A stretch of 64,000 bases of DNA, from contig JASTWF010000244.1 in the NCBI GenBank assembly GCA_030390025.1, positions 62,001 to 126,000 on the forward strand. The letters are read 5' to 3'. The notes beneath the pieces are model-generated. The model did no database searches, was not told the DNA's origin, and saw nothing but the letters and a program-made list of their open reading frames with translations. A program made the translations under genes and the position numbers. The DNA comes from Squalus acanthias. Lineage: Eukaryota. Shown here in pieces: positions 5,353-52,027 of the stretch. Numbering within the stretch: the stretch's first letter is position 1; each line of letters opens with the position of its first letter.

Positions 5353-6357
5353 CGTAGCGGGCCCAGGGGCCGTGTAGCCTGATCCTGCTCCTATTTCGTG
5401 TGTCCAATTCTGTTAGGTTCAGGAGACGGTTCTGTGATAGTAGATTGGCGGTTAGGATCAGATCAGCCATGATCTTATTGAATGGCGGAGCAGGCTCGAG
5501 GGGCCAATTGGCCTACTGCTGCTCCTATTTCTTATGTTCTTATGATGTGGACTCTGTATGGGTAGAGCTGAGAAATACCATGGGGCAGAAAATGTTAGTG
5601 GGAGTTGTATACAGCCCCCCAAACAGTAATGCTGAGGTTGGGGATGGCATTAAACGGGAAATTAGAGACGCGTGCAATAAGGGCACAGCAGTTATCATGG
5701 GTGACTTTAATCTACATATAGATTGGGCTAACCAAATTAGTAACAATACTGTGGAGGAGGAATTCCTAGAGTGTATACGGCTTGGTTTCCTGGACCAATA
5801 TGTCGAGGAACCAACTAGAGATCAGGCCATCTTAGACTGGGTATTATGTAATGAGAAAGGATTAATTAGCAATCTTGTTGTGCGAGGCCTCTTGGGGAGG
5901 AGCGATCATAATATGATAGAATTCTTCATTAAGATGGAGAGTGAAGTAGTTGACTCAGAGACTAGGGTCCTGAATTTAAATAAAGGAAACTACGATGGTA
6001 TGAGGCGCGAGTTGGCTAGGATGGATTGGGGAATGTTACTTAAAGGGTTGACGGTGGATAGGCAATGGCAAACATTTAAAGATCGCATGGATGAACTACA
6101 GAATTTGTTCATCCTGTTTGGCATAAAAATAAAACAAAAAAGGTGACTCAACCGTGGCTAACAAGGGAAATTAGGGATAGCATAAGATCCAAGGAGAGGA
6201 CATATAATTGGCCAGAAAAAGCAGCAAACCTGAGAATTAGGAGCAGTTTAGGATTCAGCAAAGGAGGACAAAGGGATTAATTAAGAGGGGGGAAATAGAG
6301 TATGAGAGTAAGCTTTCAGGGAACATAAAAACTGACTGTAAAAGCTTCTATAGATAT

Positions 6358-8094
6358 GTGAAGAGAAAAAGATTGGTGAAGTCAAGCGCAGGTCCCTTGC
6401 AGTCAGAATCAGGGGAATTTATAATGGGGAACAAAGAAATGGCAGACCAATTAAATACATACTTTGGTTCTGTCTTCACAAAGGAGGACACAAATAACCT
6501 CCCAGAGATGTCGGGGAACAGAGGGTCTAATGAGAGGGAGGAACTGAATGAAATCAGTATTTGTAGGGAAATGGTGTTAGGGAAATTGACCGGATTGAAG
6601 GCCGATAAATCCCCAGCGCCTGATAATCTACATCCTAGGGTACTTAAGGAAGTGGCCCTAGAAATAGTAGATGCATTGCTGGTCATCTTCCAAAATTTTA
6701 TACACTCTGGAACAATTCCCATGGATTGGAGGGTAGCTAATGTAACCCCACTATTTAAAAAAGGTGGTAGAGAGAAAACGAGGAATTATAGACCGGTAAG
6801 CCTGACATCGGTAGTGGGGAAAATGCTAGAGTCCATTACAAAAGATGTAATAGCAGAGCACTTGGAAAACAGTGATAGGATCGGACAAAGTCAACATGGA
6901 TTTACAAAAGGTAAATCATGCTTGACTAATCTACTGAAATTTTTTGAGGATGTAACTGGTAGAATAGATAAGAGAGAACCAGTGGATGTGGTGTATTTGG
7001 ACTTTCAGAAGGCTTTCGATAAGGTCCCGCATAAGAGATTAGCGTGCAAAGTTAAAGCACATGGGATTGGGGGTAAGGTACTGACTTGGATAGAGAACTG
7101 GTTGGCAGACAGGAAGCAAAGAGTTGGAATAAACGGGTCTTTTTCCGAGTGGCAGGCAGTGACTAGTGGGGTACCGCAGGGATCGGTGCTAGGACCCCAG
7201 CTATTCACAATATATATTAATAATCTAGACAAGGGAACTAGATGTAATATCTCCAAGTTTACAGACGACACAAAGCTGGGTGGGCGTGTGTGCTGTGAGG
7301 AGGATGCAGAGAAAGTCCAGTATGATTTGGACAGGTTGGGTGATTGGGCAGATGCATGGCAGATGCAGTATAATGTGGATAAATGCGAGGTTATGCACTT
7401 TGGTGGCAAAAATAGGAAGGCAGATTATTATCTGAACGGCAATAGATTGGGAAAAGGGGAAGTGCAACGAGACCTGGGTGTCCTTGTGCACCAGTCGCTG
7501 AAGGTAAGCATGCAGGTGCAGCAGGCAGTTAAGAAAGCAAATGGTATGTTGGCCTTCATAGCGAGAGGATTCGAGTACAGGAGCAAGGATGTCTTGCTTC
7601 AGTTGTACAGGGCCTTGGTAAGACCACACCTTGAGTATTGTGTGCAGTTTTGGTCGCCTTATCTGAGGAAGGATGTTCTTGCCATGGAGGGGGTGCAGCA
7701 AAGATTCACCAGACTGATACCTGGGATGGCAGGAATGACGTATGAGGAGAGATTGGGTCGGTTAGGCTTATATTCGCTGGAATTTAGAAGAATGAGAGGG
7801 GATCTCATTGAATCTTATAAAATTCTAACAGGACTAGACACACTAGATGCAGGAAGGATGTTCCCGATGGCGGGGGAGTCCAGAACCAGGGGCCGCAGTC
7901 TAAGGATAAGGGGTAAGCCATTTAGGACTAAGATGAGGAGGAATTTCTTCACCCAGAGAGTGGTGAACCTGTGGAATTCTCTACCACACAAGGCAGTTGA
8001 GGCCAATTCATTAAATATATTCAAGAAGGAGTTAGATATATTTCTTAAGGCTAAAGGGATCAAGGGATATGGGGAGAAAGCAGGGACAGGGTAG
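6358..8094 (+). pseudogene. CR1-A ORF2 reverse transcriptase portion (upstream endonuclease part disrupted)
   Basis: 578-aa open frame with RT motifs; upstream ORF2 has stops, a frameshift near 6140 and a nested insertion. Confidence 0.9.
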
Positions 8095-8328
8095 TGAATT
8101 TGGATGATCAGCCATGATCTCATTAAATGGCGGAACAGGCTCGAGGGGCCAAATGGCCTACTCCTGCTCCTATCTTCTATGTTTCTATGTAATGCAGTTC
8201 TGCCATCTGTAGACTCTAAATCATAGAAAATTCAGACAGCAAAATAATATTTTCTTGCTCTTAATAACTCGTAAAAATTCTTTCAGTTTAAATAAGTGAT
8301 TTCTTTGTTTTGTTTTTCTTTCTCAAAG

Positions 8329-8709
8329 TGCCACCAAAGATTTCAAACATTGTGGTGGCACCTCACACCAATCATAATGAGTCTGTGGCCTTGGCTTGTC
8401 CAATCAATGGATTTAAACCAAGACCATTAAGTATCATATGGCAACAAATCGGAAAGAATAATGAATTGAAAGAAATCGTTCAGCTGGATAAGGACAACAA
8501 AACAATCTATCCTAGTGACAAAGGGAAGAAGTCCAAGTATCACCATTCCATCAGTGAGATGGAGTGTGACGACAAAACATACAACATCACCAGTGTACTC
8601 GTTATTGTGCCAGATATACTGCAAGACCAGGACACGAAGTTCATCTGTAAGGTGCAGCATGAGTGCACCGGCAGTGACCAACAGAGAGAAATAATTCTAA
8701 AGATTAGAG
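8329..8709 (+). CDS. Ig C1-set-like exon A, copy 1 (127 codons, phase 1-1)
   Basis: Polypyrimidine-AAAG acceptor, GTATGT donor at 8710; LACPINGFKP, W, FICKVQH motifs. Confidence 0.9.
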
Positions 8710-9169
8710 GTATGTAATATTTTTGACAATACCTTGTATAGAACAATGGATTACATTTTGTTTCCAGATACTGTTTCGTTGTTTTTTGTAATGCAACAAA
8801 ATTGCTAATTTTGTTTGGCAAATCCTGTGAAGAGTGACATGTCCTCAGCGCTGTATTTCTCTAATTACTCCTTGAAGACAGTGATAATTTTACAAGGGAA
8901 GTATTCAGAATGCATCCAAGAATATTCAGAACTCAAATATTTAATGGGGAAACATATTAGCTGATTACCCTGGAGTCACTGATTTAAATGAGCTTGTTGT
9001 GTAACTTTTTATTTTATACTTGGGTCTTATTTCAATATTTTCAGAACACAATGGATTAAATGTTCTGGTCATTGGCTGTGGATAGGCAGAGAATCTAGTC
9101 CACAATATCTCTAATCTGCTTGTGTTAAAGCCTGCGGTAATTTTCTTTTTGTGTGGTTTTTTTTTCCAG

Positions 9170-9466
9170 CCACTCCAAAACTGGACCCGATAAAGTATGA
9201 AGCAGAAGAGGCTGTGACTTTAAACTGTCGAATACATTCTTTTTACCCCATTAAAATCACAGTTACATGGCTCAAAAATGGTGAGAAAATGACAGAAAAA
9301 TCCAAAGTTAGTGCGGCAACTCTGGGAAAGGATGGACTCTATTACTTGACAAGTAGTGTGAAGATTGTACCTACCAGAGCTGATGTTGAGAAGAAATACA
9401 CATGTCAAGTAGAACATGAGAGCCTAACAGAGCCAGTGGAAGCTGACTGGGTACTCGGTCAACTGG
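9170..9466 (+). CDS. Canonical Ig C1-set exon B, copy 1 (99 codons, phase 1-1)
   Basis: TTTCCAG acceptor, GTAAGT donor at 9467; LNCRIHSFYP, VTWLKNG, YTCQVEHESL. Confidence 0.92.
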
Positions 9467-9669
9467 GTAAGTAACCAAGTTCTGACCAGAGTATGACTAT
9501 TACTATTTTTTTCTGAACATTTCTTATAAAAACATAACTTGCTGTGGCAGGGCATCGAACGGCATCTGCTGTTAGTTAGATTTGCCCTTGTATGATTTAG
9601 GTTTTAAAATTTTTGGCGTGGCAAGTTGCTGGAAGTGCGAGCTGATAACATCACAGCGAGGGAAACCAG

Positions 9670-10528
9670 GGCCTGAATTTTCCCAGTCCCAAGTGTGCGG
9701 GTTTGGGGGTGGGTCAGCAGTAAAAATCGCCGAAAAAAATAATTCTTAAAATTATTTAAACATGAAAAAACTTTAAAATTAGTTATAGGTTATTTTTAGA
9801 CCATTAAAATGTTTACATTTATTTTTCAAAAAATTAAATTGTTTTAATTGTTTAATTTAATTGTATTTTAATTAATTTTGAACATGTAATGATTTTATTT
9901 TTATTTACCTGGTGTGTAATTGTGTTTTTTAGGGGATTCCGTACGTAAATGGAATTCCCACAGGATAATGGGGTCCCCCTGTTTGGTTGGCCTGGCCTAC
10001 GTGATCCCAGGGACACTTGCGAACCGCATGCGCCCTGGGATACGTGGGCCTTTACGAATGTATGAATGGGGATCACTCAAAAAACACACTAAAACATTAA
10101 ATACATTTTTTTTTAATCACGTTTTTAAATGAGTTAAAAATATTTTAAACAAAAATTTAATTTATTGAATTTTTTTTTACTGGGCTAAAAATAAACTTTT
10201 TTAAAAAGTATTTTTAAATTATAAATGAGTGATTTTTTTTTACTTTTTTAATCTCTTTTGCTGGTAAAAGCAGGTCTTACGCCTGCTTTTACCAGGCGTA
10301 AGATTTTTAAAGGTTTTCAGCGGGCGGAGGTTCTGCAGAAAGCGGAACTCTCCACCCGCAGAGGCCCTTCTCCAGGGCAGGCGGATGATCTGTCAAGAGA
10401 ATTCTTGACAGATCGGAAGTGCCGGTTTTCAGTGCATGCACTTCAAATGCCTGAAACCGGCACTTGCGAGGCCCCGACAGGTGTGTACACAGCTCGAACA
10501 CAGCCATAGGTATCGGAAAATACGGGCC
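9670..10528. mobile_element. Harbinger-type MITE in the B-C intron (also in unit 2; truncated in unit 3)
   Basis: Imperfect TIRs GGCCTGAATTTTCC / GGAAAATACGGGCC, AT-rich internal inverted repeats, no ORF; TSD not clear. Confidence 0.6.
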
Positions 10529-10642
10529 ATTATCATGTCTTGTATATACACTTTTACCTGTAGTCCTAGCAAGAAAATAAAGCAGAGTAAACAAATGAGA
10601 ACATTTCGATTGTCAAGTTTTATTGACTTTTGTTTTGATTAG

Positions 10643-11083
10643 CTACTCCAAAAATTACTGAATTCAACAAAGCTCTCGACTTTCGCCATTTTGAGGTAGC
10701 CGTCATCCGTTGCCAAATTACCGGATTGAGACCACAGGGGATTAGACTTGCTTTATTCTTAAAGAGGAAGGGGGATGAAAACCAAAAGAAAATTTTTTGC
10801 TGGAATAGTATGGACCAGATCGCAAAGAACCAAGTAAAAACAAAGCACCACGGAAAACGAGATGAAGTGCAGCTTCTTATGAATGAGTATGAACAAGATG
10901 CATTCTTTAAGTCCTTGGAACCGGAATATGAAACTAACAGTGACGGAACTTCCAATTTAAAGTGCGCTATCAAAACGTATCCTGATTTATACAGCGATGA
11001 TGGGGCTGAATTAACTATTGAAGTTCAACATATAACTCTTGCGTCACCTGTTATGAAAACTGTAACACTGGATGTTAAAGGAG
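10643..11083 (+). CDS. Atypical Ig C1-like exon C, copy 1 (147 codons, phase 1-1)
   Basis: TTGATTAG acceptor, GTAAAT donor at 11084; ATPKI...IRCQITGLRP...NSDGT...LTIEVQH; open frame throughout. Confidence 0.85.
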
Positions 11084-11348
11084 GTAAATTATAAACATTT
11101 GCACTTAATCATTAATGTTTATGCTATGTGATTCTGTTCTTTTTTGTTAACTTGTGTATTTGTGCGTGTATTTGTGCGTATGAAGTGACATTCATGTGGT
11201 TAATAGTGGTAATGCAGTTCTGCCATCTGTAGACTCTAAATCATAGAAAATTCAGACAGCAAAATAATATTTTCTTGCTCTTATTAACTCGTAAAAATTC
11301 TTTCAGTTTAAATAAGCGATTTCTTTGTTTTGTTTTTCTTTCCCAAAG

Positions 11349-11729
11349 TGCCACCAAAGATTTCAAATATTGTGGTGCCACCTCACACCAATCATAATGA
11401 GTCTGTGGCCTTGGCTTGTCCAATCAATGGATTTAAACCAAGACCATTAAGTATCAAATGGCAACAAATCGGAAAGAATAATGATTTGAAAGAAATCGTT
11501 GCGCTGGATAAGGACAGCAGAACAATCTATCCTAGTGACAAAGGGAAGAAGTCCAAGTATCACCATTCCATCAGTGAGATGGAGTGTGACGACAAAACAT
11601 ACAACATCACCAGTGTACTAGTTATTGTGCCAGATATACTGCAAGACCAGGACACGAAGTTCATCTGTAAGGTACAGCATGAGTGCACCGGCAGTGACCA
11701 ACAGAGAGAAATAATTCTAAAGATTAGAG
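11349..11729 (+). CDS. Ig C1-set-like exon A, copy 2
   Basis: Same splice sites and motifs as copy 1; ORF 11330-11737. Confidence 0.9.
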
Positions 11730-12187
11730 GTATGTAATATTTTTGACAATACCTTGTATAGAACAATGGATTACATTTTGTTTCCAGATACTGTTTCCTT
11801 GTTTTTTGTAATGCAACAAAATTGCTAATTTTGTTTGGCAAATCCTGTGAAGAGTGACATGTCCTCAGCGCTGTATTTCTTTAATAACTCCTTGAAGACA
11901 GTGATACTTTTACAAGGGAAGTATTCAGAATGCATCCAAGAATATTCAGAACTCAAATATTTAATGGGGAAACATATTAGCTGATTACCCTGGAGTCACT
12001 GATTTAAATGAGCTTGTTGTGTAACTTTTTATTTTATACTTGGGTCTTATTTCAATATTTTCAGAACACAATGGATTAAATGTTCTGGTCATTGGCTGTG
12101 GATAGGCAGAGAATCTAGTCCACAATATCTCTAATCTGCTTGTGTTAAAGCCTGCGGTAATTTTCTTTTTGTGTGTTTTTTTTTCAG

Positions 12188-12499
12188 CCACTCCAAAACT
12201 GGACCCAATAAAGTATGAAGCAGAAAAACTAGTTGCAGAAGAGGCTGTGACTTTAAACTGTCGAATACATTCTTTTTACCCCAGTGAAATCACAGTTACA
12301 TGGCTCAAAAATGGTGAGAAAATGACAGAAAAATCCAAAGTTAGTGCGGCAACTCTGGGAAAGGATGGACTCTATTACTTGACAAGTAGTGTGAAGATTG
12401 TACCTACCAGAGCTGATGTTGAGAAGAAATACACATGTCAAGTAGAACATGAGAGCCTAACAGAGCCAGTGGAAGCTGACTGGGTACTCGGTCAACTGG
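12188..12499 (+). CDS. Ig C1-set exon B, copy 2 (104 codons)
   Basis: TTTCAG acceptor, GTAAGT donor; ORF 12142-12507. Confidence 0.92.
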
Positions 12500-13680
12500 G
12501 TAAGTAACCAAGTTCTGACCAGAGTATGACTATTACTATTTTTTTCTGAACATTTCTTATAAAAACATAACTTGCTGTGGCAGGGCATCGAACGGCATCT
12601 GCTGTTAGTTAGATTTGCCCTTGTATGATTTAGGTTTTAAAATTTTTGGCGTGGCAAGTTGCTGGAAGTGCGAGCTGATAACATCACAGCGAGGGAAACC
12701 AGGGCCTGAATTTTCCCAGTCCCGAGTGTGCGGGTTTGGGGGTGGGTCAGCAGTAAAAATCGCCGAAAAAAATAATTTTTAAAATTATTTAAACATGAAA
12801 AAACTTTAAAATTAGTTATAGGTTATTTTTAGCCCGTTAAAACGTTTACATTTATTTTTCAAAAAATTAAATTGTTTTAGTTGTTTAATTTAATTGTATT
12901 TTAATTAATTTTGAACATGTAATGATTTTATTTTTATTTACCTGGTGTGTAATTGTGTTTTTTAGGGGATTCCGTACGTAAATGGAATCCCCACAGGATA
13001 ATGGGTCCCCCTGTTTGATTGGTTGGCCTGGCCTACGTGATCCCAGGGACACTTGCGAACCGCATGCGCCCTGGGATACGTGGGCCTTTACGAATGTATG
13101 AATGGGGATCACTCAAAAAACACACTAAAACATTAAATACATTTTTTTTTAAATCACGTTTTTAAATGAGTTAAAAATATTTTAAACAAAAATTTAATTT
13201 ATTGAATTTTTTTTTACTGGGCTAAAAATAAACTTTTTTAAAAAGTATTTTTAAATTATAAATGAGTGATTTTTTTTTTACTTTTTTAAACTCTTTTGCT
13301 GGTAAAAGCAGGTCTTACGCCTGCTTTTACCAGGCGTAAGATTTTTAAAGGTTTTCAGCGGGCGGAGGTTCTGCAGAAAGCGGAACTCTCCACCCACAGA
13401 GGCCCTTCTCCAGGGCAGGCGGATGATCTGTCAAGAGAATTCTTGACAGATCGGAAGTGCCGGTTTTCAGTGCATGCACTTCAAATGCCTGAAACCGGCA
13501 CTTGCGAGGCCCCTACAGGTGTGTACACAGCTCGAACACAGCCATAGGGATCGGAAAATACGGGCCATTATCATGTCTTGTATATACACTTTTACCTGTA
13601 ATCCTAGCAAGAAAATAAAGCAGAGTAAACAAATGAGAACATTTCGATTGTCAAGTTTTATTGACTTTTGTTTTGATTAG

Positions 13681-14121
13681 CTACTCCAAAAATTACTGAA
13701 TTCAACATTCCTCTCGACATTCGCCATTTTGAGGTAGCTGTCATCCGTTGCCAAATTACCGGATTGAGACCACAGGGGATTAGACTTGCTTTATTCTTAA
13801 AGAGGAAGGGGGATGAAAACCAAAAGAAGATTTTTTGCTGGAATAGTATGGACCAGATTGCAAAGAACCAAATAAAAACAAAGCACCACGGAAAACGAGA
13901 TGAAGTGCAGCTTCCTATGAATGAGTATGAACAAGATGCATTCTTTAAGTCCTTGGAACCAGAATATGAAACTAACAGTGACGGAACTTCCAATTTAAAG
14001 TGCGATATCAAAACGTATCCTGATTTATACAGCGATGATGGGGCTCAATTAACTATTGAAGTTCAACATATAACTCTTGCGTCACCTGTTATGAAAACTG
14101 TAACACTGGATGTTAAAGGAG
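13681..14121 (+). CDS. Atypical Ig C1-like exon C, copy 2
   Basis: GATTAG acceptor ending 13680, GTAAAT donor; open frame. Confidence 0.85.
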
Positions 14122-14374
14122 GTAAATTATGAACATTTGCACTTAATCATTAATGTTTATGCTATGTGATTCTGTTCTTTTTTGTTAACTTGTGTATTTG
14201 TGCGTATGAAGTGACATTCATGTGGTTAATAGTGGTAATGCAGTTCTGCCATCTGTAGACTCTAAATCATAGAAAATTCAGACAGCAAAATAATATTTTC
14301 TTGCTCTTATTAACTCGTAAAAATTCTTTCAGTTTAAATAAGCGATTTCTTTGTTTTGTTTTTCTTTCCCAAAG

Positions 14375-14755
14375 TGCCACCAAAGATTTCAAATATTGTG
14401 GTGCCACCTCACACCAATCATAATGAGTCTGTGGCCTTGGCTTGTCCAATCAATGGATTTAAACCAAGACCATTAAGTATCAAATGGCAACAAATCGGAA
14501 AGAATAATGATTTGAAAGAAATCGTTGCGCTGGATAAGGACAGCAGAACAATCTATCCTAGTGACAAAGGGAAGAAGTCCAAGTATCACCATTCCATCAG
14601 TGAGATGGAGTGTGACGACAAAACATACAACATCACCAGTGTACTAGTTATTGTGCCAGATATACTGCAAGACCAGGACACGAAGTTCATCTGTAAGGTA
14701 CAGCATGAGTGCACCGGCAGTGAGCAACAGAGAGAAATAATTCTGAAGATTAGAG
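14375..14755 (+). CDS. Ig C1-set-like exon A, copy 3
   Basis: Same splice sites and motifs; ORF 14356-14763. Confidence 0.9.
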
Positions 14756-15214
14756 GTATGTAATATTTTTGACAATACCTTGTATAGAACAATGGATTAC
14801 ATTTTGTTTCCAGATACTGTTTCGTTGTTTTTTGTAATGCAACAAAATTGCTAATTTTGTTTGGCAAATCCTGTGAAGAGTGACATGTCCTCAGCGCTGT
14901 ATTTCTCTAATTACTCCTTGAAGACAGTGATACTTTTACAAGGGAAGTATTCAGAATGCATCCAAGAATATTCAGAACTCAAATATTTAATGGGGAAACA
15001 TATTAGCTGATTGCCCTGGAGTCACTGATTTAAATGAGCTTGTTGTGTAACTTTTTATTTTATACTTGGGTCTTATTTCAATATTTTCAGAACACAATGG
15101 ATTAAATGTTCTGGTCATTGGCTGTGGATAGGCAGAGAATCTAGTCCACAATATCTCTAATCTGCTTGTGTTAAAGCCTGCGGTAATTTTCTTTTTGTGT
15201 GTGTTTTTTTCCAG

Positions 15215-15526
15215 CCACTCCAAAACTGGACCCAATAAAGTATGAAGCAGAAAAACTAGTTGCAGAAGAGGCTGTGACTTTAAACTGTCGAATACATTCT
15301 TTTTACCCCAGTGAAATCACAGTTACATGGCTCAAAAATGGTGAGAAAATGACAGAAAAATCCAAAGTTAGTGCAGCAACTCTGGGAAAGGATGGACTCT
15401 ATTACTTGACAAGTAGTGTGAAGATTGTACCTACCAGAGCTGATGTTGAGAAGAAATACACATGTCAAGTCGAACATGAGAGCCTAACAGAGCCAGTGGA
15501 AGCTGACTGGGTACTCGGTAAACTGG
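15215..15526 (+). CDS. Ig C1-set exon B, copy 3
   Basis: TTCCAG acceptor, GTAAGT donor; ORF 15199-15534. Confidence 0.92.
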
Positions 15527-16549
15527 GTAAGTAACCAAGTTCTGACCAGAGTATGACTATTACTATTTTTTTCTGAACATTTCTTATAAAAACATAACTT
15601 GCTGTGGCAGGGCATCGAACGGCATCTGCTGTTAGTTAGATTTGCCCTTGTATGATTTAGGTTTTAAATTTTTGGCGTGGCAAGTTGCTGGAAGTGCGAG
15701 CTGATAACATCACAGCGAGGGAAACCAGGGCCTGAATTTTCCCAGTCCCGAGTGTGCGGGTTTGGGGGTGGGTCAGCAGTAAAAATCGCCGAAAAAAATA
15801 ATTTTTAAAAATTATTTAAACATGAAAAAACTTTAAAATTAGTTATAGGTTATTTTTAGCCCGTTAAAACGTTTACATTTATTTTTCAAAAAATTAAATT
15901 GTTTTAGTTGTTTAATTTAATTGTATTTTAATTAATTTTGAACATGTAATGATTTTATTTTTATTTACCTGGTGTGTAATTGTGTTTTTTAGGGGATTCC
16001 GTACGTAAATGGAAGCCCCACAGGATAATGGGGGGCCCCTGTTTGATTGGTTGGCCTGGCCTACGTGATCCCAGGGACACTTGCGAACCGCATGCGCCCT
16101 GGGATACGTGGGCCTTTACGAATGTATGAATGGGGATCACTCAAAAAACACACTAAAACATTAAATAAATTTTTTTTTTAAATCACGTTTTTAAAATGAG
16201 TTAAAATTACATTAAATTAAATATTTTAAACAAAAGTTAAATTTTTTGAAACAAAAAGTTCTTTACTGGGCTAAAAATAAACACCTTTTTTAAAAGTATT
16301 TTAAAATTATAAATGAGTGAAATTTTTTTAACTTTTTTAAACTCTTTTGCTGGTAAAAGCAGGTCTTACGCCTGCTTTTACCAGGCGTAAGATTTTTAAA
16401 GGTTTTCCGCGGTCGGAGGTTCTGCAGAAAGCAGAGATGTTAAATCATGAACATTTGACTTAATCATTAATGTTTATGCTATGTGATTCTGTTCTTTTTT
16501 GTTAACTTGTGTATTTGTGCGTATAAAGTGACATTCATGTGGTTAATAG

Positions 16550-16823
16550 TGCACTATGTGGGAAATCAGTGACACTTCCTGTGTCCCTGATGACCATGTG
16601 TGCGGGAAGTGTATCCAGCTGCAGCGACTGGCGCTGGAGCTGCGAATGGATGTATACTGGAGCATTTGCGATGCTGAGGACGTCGTGGATAGCACGTTTA
16701 ATGAGTTGGTCACACCGCAGGTAAAGGCTGCACAGGCAGGAAGGGAATGGGTGACCGCCAGGCAGAGTAGTAGTCGCAGATAGGTAGTGCAAGGGTCCCC
16801 TGTGGCCATCCCCCTCTCAAACA
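16550..16823 (+). mobile_element. CR1-A family ORF1 fragment (5'-truncated start)
   Basis: MWEISDTSCVPDDHVCGKC matches CR1-A ORF1 at 60446-60733. Confidence 0.9.
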
Positions 16824-17074: not shown

Positions 17075-17430
17075 AACTCACCTCTCCACACTCGCACCCA
17101 TCATTTACCTCCACAGCACACTTTTGCACCCCGCAGACCCCCGCAGACCCACTACACGCCCCGGTGACCCTGGCGGGGTTCGGAGCCTTCGGTAAGCCCG
17201 CACTTGTGTGGGCAAAATGCGGATAATCCTCTTATCTGCCTGTTAACAGGCAGTTAAGTGCCTGTAATCCCTTCCCGCCTCCAAGGAGACGGGACCCGGC
17301 ACGGGATGGCTACCCGCCTCCTGGCAAGATGGCACGGAGGCGGGTTGGGCACGCGCCCCCAAATTCTGCTATTTTCCCGGCAGTCCCGCCTCCATACCCG
17401 CCTCCTCAGGGCTGGCAAGATTGTGCCCCT
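17075..17430 (-). mobile_element. Partial Harbinger-type MITE (same family as 19721-20503, opposite orientation; duplicated at 21391-21743)
   Basis: Reverse complement matches 19721-20060; ends ...CAAGATTGTGCCCC. Confidence 0.7.
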
Positions 17431-18200
17431 TGTCTTAATTTTACGCAGCATTTCCCAGCTCTGCTGTTCTGTTAATTTAACCCCTTGATAGTTATATTTC
17501 AACTAATAGCCTCATTTTAAGGTATATTACACCAATAGCCTTGCCAAGAGGCAGTTGGAAATAAAGCAAAATATATAATTAACCTTATCTGTAAAGTTGT
17601 CCTCATTCTAACACTTTTCACCACAGGAGAAACACCCTGATGGCTTTGTTTCCTTCCAGTGTTTTTCTGTTACTCAGAGGCATTGAAATGATGTGGAAAT
17701 TTGGCAGAGTATTCTATTAGCACCCCCTGGCCTATTCTTACTACAACTGCCAGTGCCTAAGTTATACTTTATATTCAAGCAGTTTTTTATGATGTGATCT
17801 GAATCATGTTAGAACATAAATGGGACGTATTAAATAATTTTATACCCTGCTTTCATGAGGAAAACATAAAAGAGGGGGAAATACCACTCTAGTAACCAAG
17901 CTGTGGAATTCTGCCAGTACGACTCCAAACTAGTTGTCAAAGGCAGATTTAATTCAGCAAGAGAGGTCTACTGGCAGTTAATATTTTCAGAGGACCAAGT
18001 CTTCATTATTCTAAGATTCTCCAATGAGGAGGCAAGCTGAAAATTAATGACTTTTCCCTTTGGAAAAAGTGACATTTTGTTCAACTGAATACATGTGTTT
18101 TCTTTCAATATTGGCCAACAGTATTATCGCTGCTGTTTCTGCTCGTTTACACTATGGGGTTTACCCTACTTACAGTGTTATTTACTTTGCATTAATGTAG

Positions 18201-18343
18201 AATCTAAGAAAACCTGCACAGGAGAAGAAAGCAATACTGAGGAAACAAAGCAAGTCACCGATGATAACTGCAGGCAAGGAGTCGAGTTGCAGGAAAAAAA
18301 TAATCGGGAAACTGAAGGTGGAATTAGTAGCGAAGGTATCTGA
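18201..18343 (+). CDS. Candidate acidic tail exon 1 of the Ig gene (ESKKTCTGEESNTEE...EGI*)
   Basis: TTTACTTTGCATTAATGTAG acceptor, phase 1, purine-rich E/K/T frame; paralogous to 19269 and 22503. Confidence 0.45.
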
Positions 18344-19268
18344 TCTAATGAAAAGAATTTGTTATTTAATTAACGTGAAAGAGATGCAGGAAAGGAATAC
18401 ATTAATGCAACTCTACATTGTAGACCTTAAAGGGGAAAAGATGTCTAGGGTAGGTACTTTTATTTCAAATTACTCATATTTATGTGGAAAGAAACAATAG
18501 CTTCATCACAAATTTCATTGAGTACTATATTTTTAAAAACTGACTACTTTATTTTTGACATGGGGACTGTCAAGTAGAATTTTCCATCCTGGTACGGTGC
18601 TACATTAACGTTATATATGGCCACAGCCCATGCATTCTGCAGTGGTTGCTTTGCAAACAGTGAAGGCCAAGACCTCAAAATGTCAAAATCCATCAGATCC
18701 CAGGGGAACTTGCTACAAGCCACAAAATCTGCATCCTCCATCTTTAGCATGATTACCTGAGGTTGGGCAGTTCCAAAGTAGCTCTTAGGCCTGTTTGAAG
18801 TAATGCACACCAACACATCTCCACTGTCTTGTTTTGCTTCCACACTACTCCAAAATGCTTTTCGTAATTCATGTCACTGAAGTGGCCTTGCAGGGAGGGA
18901 GATTCCATTTGGGGTGTTTGTGCTGGCAAAAAATTGGTGGTTTTATAAATGTCAAAGGAATATATGGTAAGACTGCCATTTTCTTCTATAAAAAGAGCCA
19001 ATACTTTGAACAAAACAGTACCTCCCCCTTCAACATTTCTTTAACAAAATTCTGGAAATTTTAGTTAATTCATTTTACAAATGCAGATAACCGATGGAGT
19101 CAAATAACCTGTTCAAAATTCAACTGTTCTCCGTTACCTGGTATAAATTGTTCTGAAGTGAATTAGATAGTCGTCAATGAATAATACCATCCATATCTGT
19201 GATATTTCTGTTGCCTTTCATACTGGGTTTGCACTATTTTCAATGTTCCTTCCTTTGCATAAATGCAG

Positions 19269-19423
19269 AATCAAAACAAAAGGATATGGAAGAAGCAAAA
19301 GGAGACAATGAAGCAGAAAATACCCTTCAAGCTCAGACTGAGGAAGAAGGTAGGTCTACAGTAGTAAACAAGGCTGCAGAAAACAATAAAAAACTGAATG
19401 TAGAACGGATGGTGAAAGTATAA
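19269..19423 (+). CDS. Candidate acidic tail exon 2 (ESKQKDMEEAKGDNE...); internal phase-1 donor GTAGGT at 19350
   Basis: TTCCTTTGCATAAATGCAG acceptor; either an 81-bp symmetric exon (19269-19349) or a terminal exon to TAA at 19423. Confidence 0.45.
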
Positions 19424-19720
19424 AATGGAGTGATGTGATAAAACAGAAAGGATTTTCATTGGACTTGAAAATGATGAAGGAATGGAGCACAGTGATGAAA
19501 GTCATTATTGTATGATAACAAAATGCTGAAAAGTTGAGAATAAAATACACACTGAAGATCAATCACTAGGTTAATTCTACAAAACAATATGATAAATGCA
19601 ATTGAATATTATTAGTACAAAAGCAAAATACTGCGGATACAGGAAATCTGAAATAAAAACAAAAATTGCTGGGAATACTCAGCAGGTCAGGCATCATCTG
19701 TGGAGAGAGAAAGAGTTAAC

Positions 19721-20503
19721 GGGGGGAATTTTGCCAGCCCTGGGGAGGCGGGTATGGAGGCAGGACTGCCGGGAAAATGGCAGAAACTGGGAGCGGGTAC
19801 CGAACCCGCTCCCAACCCGCCTCCGTGCCATCTTCCCGTGAGGCAGGAAGGGGATTAGACCCAATTAGCTGCCTGTTAACAGGTAGTTAACAGGCAGTTA
19901 AGAGGCTTATCCCCATTTTACCCCTGCAAGTGCGGGCTTCGCGACAGCTGCGAACCTCGCCAGGGTCAGCGAGGCGAGCAGTGGGTCTGCGGGGGTGAGA
20001 GGGATCGAAAAGTCCGCTGTGTAGGTGAGTGATGGGTGCAAGTGTGGTGAGGTGAGTGTAAAGTGTTAGAAAAAGTTTACTTACCTTTGCTTCTTCCTGC
20101 AGGCTTCAAACCTTGGGGATCCGGAGGTGCCTCATCTCAATGGCAGAGATGACAGACTGGCTTCTGCATTCTCAGTTGCAGCAGCCATCTGATTTCTGCT
20201 GAGGAAAGAGGTTTTGGTGAGTCTTTGTGCAAGGGCTCACCTTAGAACAGAGATTGTCAGTGTTTGACTGCTTCTCAAAGCTGTCAAACGCTGACAATTC
20301 ATCTGACAAAAATTCTCGACAGATGAAACGTCATACGCTGATGTCCTCTGTCACCGGCTTTCCCTTAATTGGCCGGCTAAGCCCGCAGAGCGGGTTTAAC
20401 AAGGTCAATGAAGGGAAAATAACGTGGGTTGGCCGGACGTCGTTGGGGGCGGGACTGAAACACGACAACCAGCAGTTGCGCCCCCATTGAGAAAATCCAG
20501 CCC
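19721..20503 (+). mobile_element. Harbinger-type MITE with 3-bp TSD AAC
   Basis: AAC at 19718-19720 and 20504-20506; TIRs GGGGGGAATTTT / AAAATCCAGCCC; empty site visible in the paralogous segment at 22908-22920. Confidence 0.88.
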
Positions 20504-20996
20504 AACATTTTAGGTCGATGACCTTTCGTCAGAATTGGAAAAAGTTCGAGATGCAACAGGTTTTAAGCAAGTATTGAGGCAGGGAAAGGGGAGACGGGAG
20601 GAAAGAACAAAAGGGAAGGTCTGTGATAGGGTGGAAGGCAGGAGAGATTACATGACAAAAGGGATGATAGTGCAAGGCAAAAGTAGATGGTAATGGGGCA
20701 AGTAAATAAAGTAAAGTGTAGTAATAAAAGTTACAGCAGGTAATTTATGAATTTTGTAGATCACACAAACCCCTGCACACATGATGGTGGAAATCTCCAG
20801 CTGGAAATCGGCACCAGCATAAAGATATCTTGAAATATTATTTCCCTTCAGCATTACTGAGTAATCTGCTGGGCCGCGACAGAGTGCAGTTAAGGCTCAA
20901 CCACACTGGTGTGGGAGTGGAATCAGATATAGGCTAGACCGCATAAAGATTGCAGGTTTCATTCATTCCCTGAAGGATATTAGTTAACCAGTTTAC

Positions 20997-21379
20997 GGGA
21001 ACGGTAGCGTAGTGGTAATGTCACTGGGCTAGTAATCCAGAGGCCTGGACTAATGATCCAGAGACGTGAGTTCAAATCCCACCACGGCAGCTGGGGAATT
21101 TAAATTCAGTTAATTAAATAAATCTGGAATAAAAAGCTAGTATCAGTGATGGTAACCATGAAACTATCGGATTGTCGTAAAAACCCATCTGGTTCACTAA
21201 TGTCCTTTAGGGAAGGAAATCTGCCGTCCTTACCTGGTCTGGCCTATATGTGACTTCAGACCCACAGCAATGTGGTTGACTCTTAACTGCCCTCTGAAAT
21301 GGCCTAGCAAGTCACTCAGTTGTAACTAAACGCTACGAAACAAAATAATAAGAATGAAACCGGACGGACCACCCGGCAC
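20997..21379 (+). mobile_element. tRNA-derived SINE-like element
   Basis: A-box TAGCGTAGTGG and B-box GAGTTCAAATCC; degenerate related copies at ~20870-20993 (minus) and ~44400-44640. Confidence 0.75.
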
Positions 21380-22502
21380 TTACCTCAGATACTCACCTCT
21401 CCACACTCGCACCCATCATTTACCTCCACAGCACACTTTTGCACCCCTCCGACCCCCGCAGACCCACTACACGCCTCGGTGACCCTGGAGGGGTTCGGAG
21501 CCTTCGGTAAGCCCGCACTTGTGTGGGTAAAATGGGGATAATCCTCTTATCTGCCTGTTAACTACCTGTTAATACGCAGTTAAGTGGCTGTAATCCCTTC
21601 CCGCCTCCAAGGAGACGGGAATCGGCGCGGGGTGGCTACCTGCCTCCTGGCAAGATGGCACGGAGGCGGGTTGGGCACGCGCCCCCAAATTCTGCCATTT
21701 TCCCGGCAGTCCCGCCTCCCCAGGGCTGGCAAGATTGCGCCCCTTGTCTGAATTTTAAGCAACATTTCCCAGCTCTGCTGTTCTGTTAATTTAACCCCTT
21801 GATAGTTATATTTAAACTAATAGCCTCATTTTAAGGTATATTACACCAATAGCCTTGCCAGGAGGCAGTCGGAAATAAAGCAAAATATATAATTAACCTT
21901 ATCTGTAAAGTTGTCCTCATTCTAACACTTTTCACCACAGGAGAAATACACCCTGATGGCTTTGTTTCCTTCCAGTGTTTTTCTGTTACTCAGAGGCATT
22001 GAAAAGATGTGAAATTTTGGCAGAGTATTCTATTAGCACCCCCTGGCCTATTCTTACTGCAACTGCCAGTGCCGAAATTATACTTTATATTCAAGCAGTT
22101 TTTTATGATGTGATCTGAATCATGTTAGAACATAAATGGGACGTATTAAATAATTTTATACCCTGCTTTCATGAGGAAAACATAAAAGAGGGGGAAATAC
22201 CACTCTAGTAACCAAGCTGTGGAATTCTGCCAGTACGACTCCAAACTAGTTGTCAAAGGCAGATTTAATTCAGCAAGAGAGGTCTACTGGCAGTTAATAT
22301 TTTCAGAGGACCAAGTCTTCATTATTCTAAGATTCTCCAATGAGGAGGCAAGCTTAAAATGTATGACATTTCCCCTTTGAAGAAGTGACATTTTGTTCAA
22401 CTAAATACAGGTGTTTTCTTTCAATATTGGCCAACAGTATTATCGCTGCTCTTTCTGCTCGTTTACACTATTTACAATGTTATTTACTTTGCATTAATGT
22501 AG

Positions 22503-22597
22503 AATCAAAGACAACCTGCACAGGAGGAGAAAACAATACTGAGAAAACCGATGATAACTGCAAACAAGGAGATGAGTCGCAGGAAAAAAGTAATTGA
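22503..22597 (+). CDS. Candidate acidic tail exon 3 (ESKTTCTGGENNTEK...SN*), paralog of 18201 with an earlier stop
   Basis: Same acceptor as 18201; TGA where the paralog has CGG. Confidence 0.35.
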
Positions 22598-22907
22598 GAA
22601 GCTGAAGGTGGAATTAGTAGCTAAGCTATCTGATTTAATGAAAAGAATTTGTTCTTTAATTAAAGTGAAATTGAAAATGATGAAAGATTGGAGCACAGTG
22701 ATGAAAAACGGTATTTTATGAGAACAAAATCCTGAAAAGTTGAGAATAAAATGGAAACTGAAGATAAATCACTAGGTTAATTCTACAAAAAAGTATGTTA
22801 AATGCAATTGAATATTATTAGTACAAAAGCAAAATACTGCGGTTACTGGAAATTTAAAATAAAAACAGAAAATGCTGTCAGGCAGCATCTGTGGAGAGAG
22901 AAACAGA

Positions 22908-22942
22908 GTTAACGTTTCAGGTCGATGACCTTTCATCAGAAC
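22908..22942 (-). ncRNA. Minimal hammerhead ribozyme motif (Penelope-type, family 2)
   Basis: Minus strand: GUU-CUGAUGA-A-AGGUC-AUC-GACCU-GAAA-CGU-U-AAC; lies in a terminal fragment at ~22826-22970 also seen at 19619-20560 and 56665-56750. Confidence 0.75.
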
Positions 22943-23389
22943 AAGAAAAAGTTAGAGATGTAACAGGTTAAAAGAAACTTTTTAAAATCAATCTAACAAT
23001 TGTACAGTAGTTTAATTGGCATGATATATCATTTTAAAAAGCAAAACCCATTAGATACACTCAAAATATTTAGAATAGTATTGCTAAGTAATTCAAATCT
23101 GAAGGGTATTTGTCTTCTGTGCCATATTCTGGTCAAAATTATAAATTTATTCAATTATGTGTTGCAATTAGTCCTGATGCAACTTCGACCCGACTATCTG
23201 AGCACGGTTATAAATCTGCTGATTATACATCTGTCGTATCTTTTGTTTTCAACTGTAAGACTTCAGAAAGTGTATAAAGCTGAGAGAGATAGAGACGTGG
23301 ATGAGGAAAAGAGAGGAGAGAGAGAATATCTTGCTCCAGGCTAATGCTAGCTCAATTAAAAAAAAACACCAGCTGAATGTAAGGTGCCA

Positions 23390-23797
23390 GACTTGGTTCC
23401 GTGGTAGCTCGCTTGCCTCCAAGTCAGAAGGTCATGGGCTCAAGTCGCAATCCACCACTTGAGAACATAATCTATTATGGCACTTTGTCAGAGGTCCAGT
23501 CTTTTGAATGAGACATTAAACCAGGGTCCTGTCTACCTTATTCGGTGGACATAAAAGATCCCATGACACAATTTGAAGATGATCAGGGGAGTTTCCAGAT
23601 TTATCCCCCATCAAACATCATTTAGAAAAATTGTTGTCACTTATCTCATTGCTATTTGTGGAACCTTGCTATGCACAAATTAGCTGCCTTGTTTCCTACA
23701 GTGCAACAGTGGCTAAATATCAAAAGTACGTAATTGGCTGTGAAGTTGTTTTGGATGTCCTGAGCTCATAAAAGGCACTATATAAATGCAAGTTCTT
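23390..23797 (+). mobile_element. Deu-domain SINE (SacSINE1/AmnSINE-like) with L2-type tail
   Basis: tRNA-like head, AAGATCCCATG...ATTGCTATTTGTGG...CTTGCT core and AAGGCACTATATAAATGCAAG tail. Confidence 0.75.
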
Positions 23798-25701
23798 ACT
23801 TATCGCACCTGTACCTTGTTGACAATTGGAAAAAGTAATTGTTAATTACTTACCCTTGTGAGACAGATTTTAATTGCTAACACCTCTGAGACAACCAGAA
23901 AGAAAGGGACAGATAGACAAAGGCAGACACTTTCTTTCCTAATTCTAATTTGATTTTTTAAAATAATTAAATGTAATTTTAAAAGCAAATAAAGCCCAAA
24001 ACTCCACATTAGCAGAGGTGGGCATCCTGGAGAAAAAATGCATTTTGCTGTGACTTCTGAAGCAGGAAATGCAAATTTTGTTTCCCCCACCCGACCATTC
24101 CTTCTGTTAGACTCTCTGTTGACTAAATCCACTTGAATAACACTCCAGACTGAAACTCCTGGAATTGAAATAGGAGGTGAGTGGCAACAGTGAAGGAAGA
24201 AACCGTAGGGGACATGAGGTGCAATACTGAGGGGAAGGGAGGGGAGGGGAAGGAGAAATGATGCGGGAGATGAGGTTTAAAGTAAGGGGAAGGGGAGATT
24301 AATGCAAAAGCGGGTGATGGGAAGGGGAGATGAAAGGGGAAAGGGTGAGCGGCAACAGTGAGGGCAGAGAGAGAAGAGGAGAAGAAAAGGGAAACAGTGA
24401 GGGTGGCAAGGAGCGACAGTGAGAGGAGGGAGAGAACTGTCGATTGCACTTCCGATGGAGGAACCGTGGGAGCGTGCTGGGAGGCCAGTGCAATTTCAGG
24501 GCCATATTCCTTTTTTGATTCTTTGCTCCCACTCTAATATTTCACTTGAATAAGATTTTCTGGTGAGTTGTTTTGAATGAGAACTGGTTCTGCATGAATC
24601 CCATTTATCTATAAACCCAAGCAAGAAACCTCCTTAAAGGGAGTCAAATTCTTACATCAATAAAGGTTAAAACTGAATGTCAGGCTGCCTGAAGGGGAGA
24701 CATATTGCCCACTAATTGTGATAACAATCTGACTCAGATCACTGGAAATTTTGAAGCGGAAAGACATTTTTCTTTCTGGTAAAGAATGTATGAAAGTACA
24801 GGAAGTGAATGTTAAGAGGAATGGAGTTGCTGCAGGACCCAGGAAGCTGCTTCCTATCAGTGACATCACCACAACTACTCTGGAGGAAAAAAGTGGAAAT
24901 GGCAGTTTTCTATAAGGGGCAAGACATTTTTTTAATGTAATAATTATATAGACTTTGAACAGTAGGTATTCCCTTTAGACTCTCCTTTTAAATTAAGTCG
25001 ATCCACCCCCAATATTTTCCCAAATTGTTTTCTTGGTCTACAGTGTAAAACATGTACTGCCGTGATAAACCTACATGGAATTTGTTAACAAGTTCTAATG
25101 GTAGCCATGGCAGTCTTCATGCCCAGACTTTCTGCACCAAGATAATTGGCTATAAAAATTACTAGTAATCAACTGCTCCCTTCATCACTGAAGGGTATGA
25201 CATTCATTGATGCTAAAATTAAATTATTCTATAACAATACTTGAATGTTATAGTATTTTGTTTTCTTTGCACAGAGAATCCAAGTCAATAGCAGACCCTC
25301 AAGTGTAAGGCACGTGATGTTGGACTGCTACCACATGAAGATAATCTTCTACTAAAAGATCATGTTGAACTTCTGATGTCAGACAGACCCCAAATGCACC
25401 AAATGAACTGCTGGCCATGTCAATTTAGCTGTTTTCTCGCCATACTACATTTCTTCTGCTGTTGAAGCCGAGGACTGATCTGCATTGGCTGCTGATCCTA
25501 GTGGTCATTTTTTATAATTTATTTTAATTCACTTTATTATTTAAAGTGTCAGCCTTTGCTCAGTGCTAGCATTCTTTCCTCTGAGCTAGAGAGGAGTTGA
25601 ACAGCTATGTATATGTAAAATACATTCTGTGTAAATCACAAAACAGGTTCATCCTTAAAAAGGCCAACCAGCACCAGTTTATCTGGTCACCTGGAGATTT
25701 T

Positions 25702-26386: not shown

Positions 26387-26816
26387 GTTAGTTCTTCTTG
26401 ACATTGGTGCTGGTTTGATGTATTAACTGAGCCAGGAGGACATTGTTTCGGAGGTTAGAACAAATCCATTATCTACATCATTGAGTCATCCACTTTGGAA
26501 CTGGAGATTAACAAAAAGATAATTAAATAATCAAGATAGTTTAAGACAGTTTTGATAAAGTGCGCAGAAACAAAATGTTCTCTTCATATATTCTGCCTGA
26601 CCTGCTGAGTGTTTCCAGCAATTTCTGTTTTTTATCACTAAGAAAATTCAGCATTTTCTGCCCATATTGAATTCAATGTGAACACCAGGAAAATCAAAGA
26701 TAAAACAGGATATTTAATACTCTCTGGGAACTGAGAGGAAGTTTGAACCAGAAAAAGGAAACAAAGTTTTTTTAGAAACTGTGCCAAGAATGAGTACTGG
26801 AGTGAAAAAGATAGGT

Positions 26817-26960
26817 CATAGAGTTATACAGCACAGAAAGAGGCCCTTCGGCCCATCGTGTCTGCGCCGGCCATCAAGCCCTATCTATTCTAATCCCATT
26901 TTCCAGCACTTGGTTCGTAGCCTTGTGTGCTATGGTGTTTCAAGTGCTTATCTAAATGCT
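26817..26960 (-). mobile_element. CR1 3'-end fragment
   Basis: Reverse complement resembles the CR1 3' UTR/tail at ~38770-38830. Confidence 0.6.

Positions 26961-51618: not shown

Positions 51619-51650
<32 letters not shown>

Positions 51651-51995: not shown

Positions 51996-52027
<32 letters not shown>

What the first reader, a model, noticed from the sequence alone, without database searches (positions are those of the whole stretch)
8329..15526. Ig-superfamily gene expanding by tandem duplication of a three-domain C1 module
Seen: eight intact exons, A-B-C-A-B-C-A-B, all phase 1-1 with canonical splice sites and open frames, in ~3.02-kb near-identical units. Known: C1-set domains are largely confined to jawed-vertebrate adaptive-immune molecules (Ig, TCR, MHC, B2M, tapasin, SIRP, B7-H6/NCR3LG1), mostly with a few C1 domains each. 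Inference: a long poly-C1 protein whose length changes by unequal crossing-over. I cannot match it to an Ig/TCR/MHC constant region; it may be an uncharacterised immune gene family. Best candidate for a new system here.
Basis: partly seen in the sequence, partly recalled or inferred. Interest (0 to 1): 0.85.

Follow-up and report, generated by a model that had tools for sequence, protein, structure and literature searches.

The report
Shark B7-H6 with multiplied intracellular tail
These eight exons belong to a shark copy of the natural-killer-cell ligand gene B7-H6 in which three antibody-like domains, predicted to sit inside the cell, have been multiplied by tandem duplication to fifteen and appear spliced in likely RNA data, which may change how the protein is trafficked or signals.

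Summary
Observation confirmed: eight open, phase 1-1, AG/GT exons A-B-C-A-B-C-A-B in ~3.02-kb units, 95.6-97.3% identical. This is not a new family. Upstream of the window lie V, C1 and transmembrane exons. The V matches human B7-H6 best (E 4e-14) and keeps the NKp30-contact TPxK loop; the cluster lies between RPS13 and KCNJ11. The true module is C-A-B. It follows the membrane helix, so it is predicted cytosolic. Homologues from chimaera to frog carry one C each (33 of 33). This paralogue has 4 C, 5 A and 6 B intact exons, and ends in a tail exon taken from another paralogue instead of domains D-G. RNA-type contigs from three samples (one study) show the array-specific B-to-C splice; two show B joined to a tail exon. 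Coding changes among copies are depleted (pN/pS 0.50, p 0.011). Not shown: that the array's transcript includes the membrane exon, protein, or function. The scan found the B7-H6 cytosolic Ig tail four times before (once in this genome); what this window adds is the module expansion and tail swap. Verdict: new variant of a known gene.

The parts
8189..16435 (+). Tandem array, ~3.02-kb units (pre-C intron, C, A, B, post-B intron, transposon filler)
   Evidence: self-blastn; unit = 2.75 kb of the single-module gene plus ~320 nt filler
8329..8709 (+). Exon A1, C1-set domain with both canonical cysteines
9170..9466 (+). Exon B1, C1-set domain (15-nt in-frame shorter form)
9736..10056 (.). High-copy repeat filler at the module junction, between post-B and pre-C intron DNA; the same junction is in all three B-C introns of the gene
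   Evidence: 96.9-100% between the three junction introns; very high DNA contig depth
10643..11083 (+). Exon C1, divergent C1-fold domain without the canonical disulfide, with a long disordered loop
10861..10878 (+). Acidic dileucine-type motif (D-x-x-x-L-L) in the disordered loop of C1; intact here
   Evidence: loop pLDDT < 50 at residues 65-80
11349..11729 (+). Exon A2
   Evidence: C-to-A splice in RNA-type contigs
12188..12499 (+). Exon B2
13681..14121 (+). Exon C2 (dileucine motif broken: second Leu is Pro)
14375..14755 (+). Exon A3
15215..15526 (+). Exon B3, last Ig exon of the gene
16441..16551 (+). Post-C intron remnant: the third C exon is deleted just before it
   Evidence: matches 11085-11208 and 14123-14234
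18201..18343 (+). Charged, tyrosine-free terminal exon t18, derived from another paralogue type
   Evidence: 95-99% to copies behind C' exons; loose end in X6, read as a blend of t18 and t19 (my inference)
19269..19423 (+). Charged terminal or near-terminal exon t19 (internal GT donor after 19350)
   Evidence: B-to-t19 loose end in X8, 29 of 30 letters
22503..22597 (+). Third, t18-like tail exon copy; use not seen
6241..8189 (+). LINE-like reverse-transcriptase element ending exactly at the array's left edge, inside a C-A intron; the gene continues upstream of it
   Evidence: family name CR1 recalled, not from a call

Best explanation
The array is the tandemly multiplied C-A-B part of a shark B7-H6 (NCR3LG1) paralogue, lying after the gene's transmembrane exon and so predicted to form a cytoplasmic chain of 15 C1-fold domains that likely tunes trafficking or signalling of an NKp30-type ligand. 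Shown: gene order V-C1-TM-(C A B C A* B A B A B C A B C A B)-tail on contig C1615, with an open frame of 2136-2140 codons from V to stop when the interrupted A* and the second C1 copy are skipped; array-specific splices in RNA-type contigs; one shared transposon-filled junction between B and C. Inferred origin: one break joined the intron after B to the intron before C through a repeat, making a head-to-tail unit; unequal crossing-over then changed copy number, larger LINE-bearing duplications added A-B pairs, and a further rearrangement replaced D-E-F-linker-G with charged tail exons of another paralogue. Inferred function: the V domain engages an NCR3/NKp30-family receptor through its FG loop; the cytosolic chain is a beads-on-a-string scaffold; each C carries a loop with an acidic dileucine sorting signal (intact in 2 of 4 copies), so the expansion would raise the dose of adaptor-binding sites while the tail swap removes the tyrosine motif of the parent gene's linker. 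The likely net effect is a ligand with altered surface level or reverse signalling.
For: Identity: V best PDB hits are three human B7-H6 chains, E 4-5e-14, next family 5e-8; the ectodomain C1 hits B7-H6 at E 5-9e-13, ranks 2-4 of 29; TP-x-K/R in 24 of 24 homologue V domains and in this gene, the residues that make nearly half the NKp30 contacts (PMC3135353 passages). Synteny: RPS13-family hit at C10:45.047 Mb, Kir6.2/KCNJ11 at C10:45.694 Mb, cluster between them; C1615:1-158 kb is colinear with C10:45.57-45.62 Mb. Topology: V-C1-TM-C-A in 23 of 24 plus 9 of 9 homologues (the exception is a partial model without TM); no hydrophobic segment in the eight exons (max 0.82 against 2.16 for the TM exon); canonical cysteine pair kept in V 23 of 24 and C1 24 of 24 but in C 0 of 24, D 1 of 23, E 1 of 14, F 1 of 12, G 1 of 18; TM-to-C splice in X6 and X9. 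Expression: B-to-C GT..AG joint in X6 (depth 175) and X8 (149), absent from both DNA runs; B-to-A in X8; B sequence before C in X6, X8, X10. The expressed C contig has 2 differences in 400 nt from window C1, while the single-module paralogue has 15. Selection: 21 synonymous against 40 non-synonymous variants, pN/pS 0.50, binomial p 0.011; indels 1 (in frame) in 1134 exon columns against 19 in 1636 intron columns. Dileucine motif 12 of 24 homologues against 18 of 667 background windows.
Against: The TM-to-C joints seen carry the TM variants of the single-module paralogues, not of this gene, so inclusion of the membrane exon in the array's own transcript is not shown. The leader exon lies beyond the contig start and was not found. 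A and B keep both cysteines in 24 of 24 and 23 of 23 homologues, which a reducing cytosol does not require. N-glycan sequons are only mildly rarer after the TM (0.61 against 0.88 per 100 residues). Variable columns are as frequent in exons (70 of 1134) as in introns (98 of 1636) in the four-unit alignment. The locus shows decay: one A interrupted by a 1.6-kb insertion, a deleted C, and a broken neighbour copy. B-to-C support comes from one study, from runs only guessed to be RNA, and a back-splice could give the same joint. The dileucine window was chosen after seeing the motif and homologues are related. No functional data.
Confidence: 0.62

Rival explanations
1. Transcribed but decaying copy-number variant: the array is a by-product of an unstable, repeat-rich B7-H6 cluster, still spliced but with no selected function.
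For: Interrupted A, deleted third C, loss of D-G, frameshifted leader of the neighbour copy, frameshift in C of the C10 copy; exon and intron variable-column rates are similar; copies are recent (1-4% apart), so intact frames can be chance.
Against: pN/pS 0.50 (p 0.011) and no frameshift in 15 intact exons against 19 intron indel events; spliced contigs at depth 150-200 in three samples; rays show independent module repeats in the same tail.
Confidence: 0.18
2. The array is expressed mainly without the membrane exon: either V-C1 splices straight to C (all exons phase 1), giving a secreted poly-Ig decoy, or an internal start gives a free cytosolic poly-C1 protein.
For: All exons are phase 1-1, so skipping TM keeps the frame; the TM-to-C joints seen are of the single-module TM type; A and B keep their disulfide cysteines.
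Against: The gene's TM exon is intact with AG/GT; no C1-to-C joint or loose end is among the rows shown; five of seven post-TM domain types have lost the disulfide family-wide.
Confidence: 0.12
3. The tandem array is an assembly expansion of one C-A-B unit, and the B-to-C RNA joint is a back-splice (circular RNA) from a single-module gene.
For: C1615 is an unplaced contig that overlaps C10 sequence, and C10 has one module at the matching place; no DNA contig spans the repeat-filled junction.
Against: Units differ by substitutions and a recurring in-frame 15-nt variant, not random indels; the junction holds ~320 nt that neither parent intron has at that place; the B-to-C joint is as deep as C-to-A (175 against 172) and the C contig is of array type; B-to-A and B-to-tail joints match the assembled order.
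Confidence: 0.05
4. A new antibody-like or UrIg-like gene with an extracellular poly-C1 stalk.
For: Exon B hits Ig, MHC, SIRP and UrIg2 constant domains; UrIg2 shows near-identical duplicated C exon pairs (PMC12227049 section 7).
Against: V is B7-H6-like, not Ig-like; the repeated exons follow the TM; locus is the KCNJ11-linked cluster.
Confidence: 0.03

Closest known systems
Human B7-H6 (NCR3LG1), ligand of NKp30
   Same: V + C1 ectodomain, single TM, FG-loop Thr-Pro-x-Lys, position beside KCNJ11 (PMC11846969 passage places human NCR3LG1 beside ABCC8 and KCNJ11).
   Different: Human protein is 454 aa with a Gag-like cytoplasmic domain (PMC2715080 passage). Here the tail is a chain of C1-fold domains and the gene is one of at least seven V-bearing paralogues on C1615.
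Database B7-H6-like proteins of sharks, rays, chimaera, bichirs and frogs (P0001-P0033; mostly 'uncharacterized', one named NCR3LG1)
   Same: V-C1-TM-C-A-B architecture; 59-80% identity per exon to the sawshark protein P0001.
   Different: All 33 have one C domain; the commonest full form continues D-E-F-G. This gene has C x4, A x5, B x6, lacks D-G and the tyrosine-bearing linker, and ends in a borrowed charged exon. Rays repeat other modules: B-D x4 (P0002), D x6 (P0017).
Shark UrIg2
   Same: Near-identical C1 exon modules multiplied by tandem duplication, number varying between species (PMC12227049 section 7).
   Different: UrIg2 has a VJ domain and its C1 repeats precede the TM; it lies in the antigen-receptor complex. 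The repeats here follow the TM of a B7-family gene.

Membership tests
B7-H6 / NCR3LG1 | IgV + IgC1 ectodomain most similar to B7-H6 | tested here: met
   (V and C1 exons at C1615:13245-13586 and 17350-17670)
B7-H6 / NCR3LG1 | NKp30-contact FG loop (Thr127, Pro128, Lys130) | tested here: met
   Phe82 is not kept, Gly83 is (alignment)
B7-H6 / NCR3LG1 | Conserved position next to KCNJ11 | tested here: met
   shown for the C10 cluster, to which unplaced C1615 is homologous; RPS13 as human neighbour is recalled
B7-H6 / NCR3LG1 | Type I membrane protein: one TM exon after V-C1, on the same transcript | tested here: inconclusive
   TM exon intact in the gene and TM-to-C splice seen for paralogue-type alleles; not shown for this gene's own allele; leader exon off the contig
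B7-H6 / NCR3LG1 | Binds NKp30/NCR3 and activates cytotoxic cells | not testable with these tools
   no shark NCR3 sequence was fetched; no binding data
Human-type B7-H6 tail | Gag-homologous cytoplasmic domain | tested here: not met
   post-TM exons are Ig folds; the feature is described for the human protein, so this separates tail types, not family membership
C1-set Ig domain | Pfam C1-set over cut-off, B/F-strand cysteines and C-strand tryptophan (exons A, B) | tested here: met
C1-set Ig domain | Same sequence hallmarks in exon C | tested here: not met
   no Pfam hit, cysteine pair in 0 of 24; the fold alone is C1-like
Ig / TCR / UrIg constant region | C1 domains extracellular, before any TM, behind a VJ-type V domain | tested here: not met

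The most novel reading that the evidence does not exclude
Cytoplasmic C1-domain chains are the ancestral, signalling end of B7-H6 and behave as an accordion under selection: sharks and rays independently multiply and swap tail modules (C-A-B here, B-D and D in rays) behind a conserved NKp30-binding head, so that copy number sets how much ligand stays on the cell surface, or supplies intracellular decoys for pathogen proteins that target B7-H6 trafficking. This would be a length-polymorphic intracellular Ig system in vertebrate innate immunity.
Probability: 0.2. Interest if true: 0.8.

Novelty: new variant of a known kind. Interest (0 to 1): 0.5.

Why it matters
C1-set domains are normally extracellular, disulfide-bonded parts of antigen receptors and MHC. 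A long chain of them behind the membrane of an NK-ligand is unexpected, and ten paper searches found no description of it in the held library (two likely subscription papers could not be read). This locus is a natural experiment: the same genome holds a single-module gene with the full D-G tail, this 15-domain version with a swapped tail, and versions with only a C-type domain. Comparing them in one cell line would test what the cytosolic Ig chain does and what the human Gag-like tail replaced.

Tried and rejected
UrIg/UrIg2 lead from a PDB hit: rejected on V-domain identity and topology. PDB sequence search with exon C: only one chance hit. ESM Atlas for exon C: best score 0.89, C1/C2-set clusters, lead only. 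A weak second hydrophobic stretch at the start of domain A in 5 of 24 homologues (1.65-1.85): rejected as a TM, it is the first strands of A in the model and absent in this gene. Sequencing-run search: no holder on record as RNA; four runs guessed as RNA were laid. TM exon uncovered in X8 and X10: a hole in contigs, not used as evidence. DNA contigs X1 and X5 fragment in the repeat and do not span the junction; no copy-number estimate, as no single-copy control was laid. Trees of copies were unresolved: only the two single-module B regions group with support, so no order of duplication is claimed. Homodimer prediction of C-A-B: tool not available, nothing folded, so self-association is untested. 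Flajnik 2012 (PMC3709836) and a shark NCR3 paper (DOI recalled) are not held. PMC10751288 and PMC3964593 mention B7H6 only in reference lists.
Full report
OBSERVATION. The eight exons are real and intact: A 8329-8709, B 9170-9466, C 10643-11083, A 11349-11729, B 12188-12499, C 13681-14121, A 14375-14755, B 15215-15526; all phase 1-1 with AG/GT ends, 981 codons without a stop. The repeat covers 8189-16435 with units 95.6-97.3% identical. A and B pass Pfam's C1-set cut-off; C has no Pfam match and one chance PDB sequence hit, but a model built on 14 sequences (pLDDT 78.4) matches MHC II beta-2 and beta-2-microglobulin C1 domains (E about 1e-5). So all three are C1-type folds, C being divergent with a disordered loop at residues 65-80.

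WHAT THE GENE IS. Exon C found one database protein among 99 candidates, a 1102-aa sawshark protein laid out leader-V-C1-TM-C-A-B-D-E-F-linker-G. Its model shows a helix at 264-280 followed by seven beta-sandwich domains, with pTM 0.39, as expected for loosely linked domains. Two more searches gave 33 proteins in all from sharks, rays, chimaera, bichirs and frogs, one named NCR3LG1. The window is G000:C1615:62001-126000. On that contig, upstream of the window, lie V (13245), C1 (17350, with a second copy at 27751) and TM (36703) exons, then C A B C A* B, A B, and the window's eight exons. A* carries a 1.6-kb insertion. Fifteen post-TM exons are intact (4 C, 5 A, 6 B) and the frame is open for 2136 or 2140 codons from V to a stop in a tail exon. 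The V exon's best solved relatives are three human B7-H6 chains (E 4-5e-14; 14 hits in all; next CD276 at 5e-8). The ectodomain C1 also hits B7-H6. Thr127, Pro128 and Lys130 of human B7-H6 contact NKp30, the first two making 44% of contacts (PMC3135353, passages); T-P-x-K/R is in 24 of 24 homologues and in this gene. The related cluster on chromosome-scale C10 (45.42-45.67 Mb) lies between an RPS13-family hit at 45.047 Mb and a channel at 45.694 Mb whose best matches are KCNJ11; human NCR3LG1 lies beside KCNJ11 and ABCC8 (PMC11846969, passage; RPS13 as neighbour is recalled). C1615:1-158 kb is colinear with C10:45.57-45.62 Mb at 91-98.5% over the non-repeat blocks, with about 90 kb extra where the array sits. 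Whether C1615 is another allele or extra copies is open.

TOPOLOGY. V-C1-TM precedes C-A in 23 of 24 and 9 of 9 homologues; the exception is a partial model. The eight window exons have no hydrophobic segment. The canonical cysteine pair is kept in V (23 of 24) and C1 (24 of 24) but lost in C (0 of 24), D (1 of 23), E (1 of 14), F (1 of 12) and G (1 of 18). Against a clean story, A (24 of 24) and B (23 of 23) keep it, and sequon density differs only mildly (0.88 against 0.61 per 100). A type I protein with a cytosolic Ig chain is the plain reading; it is predicted, not measured.

HOW THE ARRAY AROSE. Each unit is 2.75 kb of the single-module gene, from inside the TM-C intron to 270 nt into the B-D intron. 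The B-C intron is 269 nt of post-B intron, about 320 nt of high-copy repeat, and 586 nt of pre-C intron, and all three such introns are 96.9-100% alike: one founding junction, then copy-number change (unequal crossing-over inferred). I found no direct homology between the two parent introns, so simple homologous recombination between them is not supported. Larger duplications of 5.7-7.3 kb that include LINE DNA added A-B pairs. A LINE ends at 8189 in a C-A intron, and the third C of the window is deleted. Behind B3, window 17428-30512 comes from a different paralogue type and supplies charged exons t18, t19, t22. D-G and the linker tyrosine motif are thereby absent. All 33 homologues have one C; rays repeat B-D or D instead (gene models, unchecked).

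IS IT EXPRESSED AND SELECTED? No run was on record as RNA. I laid 6 of the 24 listed runs: two guessed DNA (X1, X5) and four guessed RNA (X6, X8, X10, X9). X6 and X8 show a GT..AG joint from B to C (depth 175, 149), C to A (172, 174) and, in X8, B to A (94); the DNA runs show none. B sequence precedes C in X6, X8 and X10: three samples, one study. X9, another organism, shows no such row among those listed. B-to-C does not exist in a single-module gene, and B-to-A matches the assembled A-B pairs. The X6 C contig differs from window C1 at 2 of 400 letters, while the single-module C differs at 15. Loose ends behind B match t19 (29 of 30 letters, X8) and, by my reading, a blend of t18 and t19 (X6). 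TM-to-C joints appear in X6 (47.5) and X9 (306) but with the TM variants of the single-module paralogues, so the array's own link to the membrane exon is unproven. A back-splice could mimic B-to-C; equal depth with C-to-A and the genomic copies argue against it. Among the 15 array exons there are 21 synonymous and 40 non-synonymous variants on 232 and 893 sites (ratio 0.50, p 0.011, a rough count without a tree); in four aligned units there is 1 in-frame exon indel against 19 intron indels, but variable columns are 6.2% in exons and 6.0% in introns. Constraint looks real but modest.

LIKELY MECHANISM. Inferred: the V domain binds an NCR3-family receptor; the cytosolic chain is an adaptor scaffold. 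An earlier scan note suggested a sorting signal in the first cytosolic domain. I tested it: [DE]xxxL[LI] lies in the C loop of 12 of 24 homologues against 18 of 667 background windows (looser form 21 of 24 against 32 of 667), and is intact in 2 of the 4 array copies. The window was chosen after the motif was seen and the proteins are related, so this is a lead. Expansion would multiply such sites while the tail swap removes the tyrosine motif, giving a ligand with different surface level or reverse signalling. Self-association through C1-C1 contacts could not be tested. Rivals: decaying transcribed variant (0.18), TM-less product (0.12), assembly artefact with circular RNA (0.05), new antibody-like family (0.03).

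WHAT IS KNOWN. Human B7-H6 has a Gag-like tail (PMC2715080, passages). UrIg2 is the published precedent for duplicated near-identical C1 exons in sharks, but extracellular (PMC12227049, passages and section 7). Ten searches of the held library (listings only, apart from the papers named) showed no description of a cytoplasmic Ig tail on B7-H6. Two likely papers are not held and no supplements were read, so a prior description is not excluded; one earlier scan note says a nurse-shark B7H6 with this layout is deposited, which I did not check. The scan itself reported the cytosolic Ig tail four times, once in this genome; no note on this place or on module expansion came up.

VERDICT. Observation confirmed, interpretation partly supported. 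Family identity B7-H6: high confidence (about 0.95). Functional membrane protein with an expanded cytosolic chain: 0.62. Novelty: new variant of a known kind. Interest 0.5: the intracellular C1 chain is strange and this locus makes it testable, but the family and its layout are already in databases and in earlier notes.

Noticed in passing
window 43927-44040 (+); G000:C1615:127307-142186: Leader exon of a second, broken copy of the gene, frameshifted by a 10-nt loss against the intact paralogue. Its V, C1, TM and C are missing; downstream of the window come a partial A, a split B, a truncated D and an intact G.
   Followed up: partly
G000:C1615:357000 to 309389 (-): Apparently intact single-module parent-type gene (leader, V, C1, TM, C, A, B, D, E, F, linker, G). 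Its linker exon reads acidic residues then Y-I-N-M; Y-x-N after acidic residues is in 5 of the 10 homologues whose linker was located. Likeness to a Grb2/PI3K docking site is recalled.
   Followed up: partly
G000:C10:45582720-45609120 (+): Chromosomal single-module copy with a frameshift in exon C.
   Followed up: no
G000:C1615:234851-265737 (+): Another chimera: type-1 V, C1 and TM joined to a different, truncated C-type exon and the t18/t19/t22 tail exons. Window 17428-30512 is 96-97% identical to this region.
   Followed up: partly
G000:C10:45498124-45517549; C1615:454404-470665: A second kind of tandem expansion in the cluster: four (C10) and two (C1615) copies of a C-type exon with tail exons.
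   Followed up: no
G000:C10:45419845-45445845 (+): Paralogue with V, C1 and five D-like domains; may be the gene of earlier finding e1-8584054.
   Followed up: no
P0002, P0017, P0014: Ray models with near-identical repeats of B-D (x4, 197-199 of 200 identical) and D (x6); a skate model with a doubled V-C1 ectodomain. Not checked against reads.
   Followed up: partly
window 31681-35886: Harbinger-like transposon: DDE_Tnp_4 ORF at 34210-35511 (-) and Myb/SANT ORF at 31944-32729 (+); copies at C1615:604-608 kb, 634-638 kb and on C10.
   Followed up: partly
window 28668-31050 (+): Broken ORF pieces that look like a membrane-fusion (envelope-like) glycoprotein by eye; the four scanned have no Pfam family over cut-off. 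Duplicated elsewhere on C1615. Described only.
   Followed up: no
window 47476-53955: About 6.5 kb of CT-rich simple repeat with an N run at 47964-48131.
   Followed up: no
G000:C1615:42470-44071: 1.6-kb insertion inside one A exon, with 72% relatives at 472-485 kb of the same contig.
   Followed up: no
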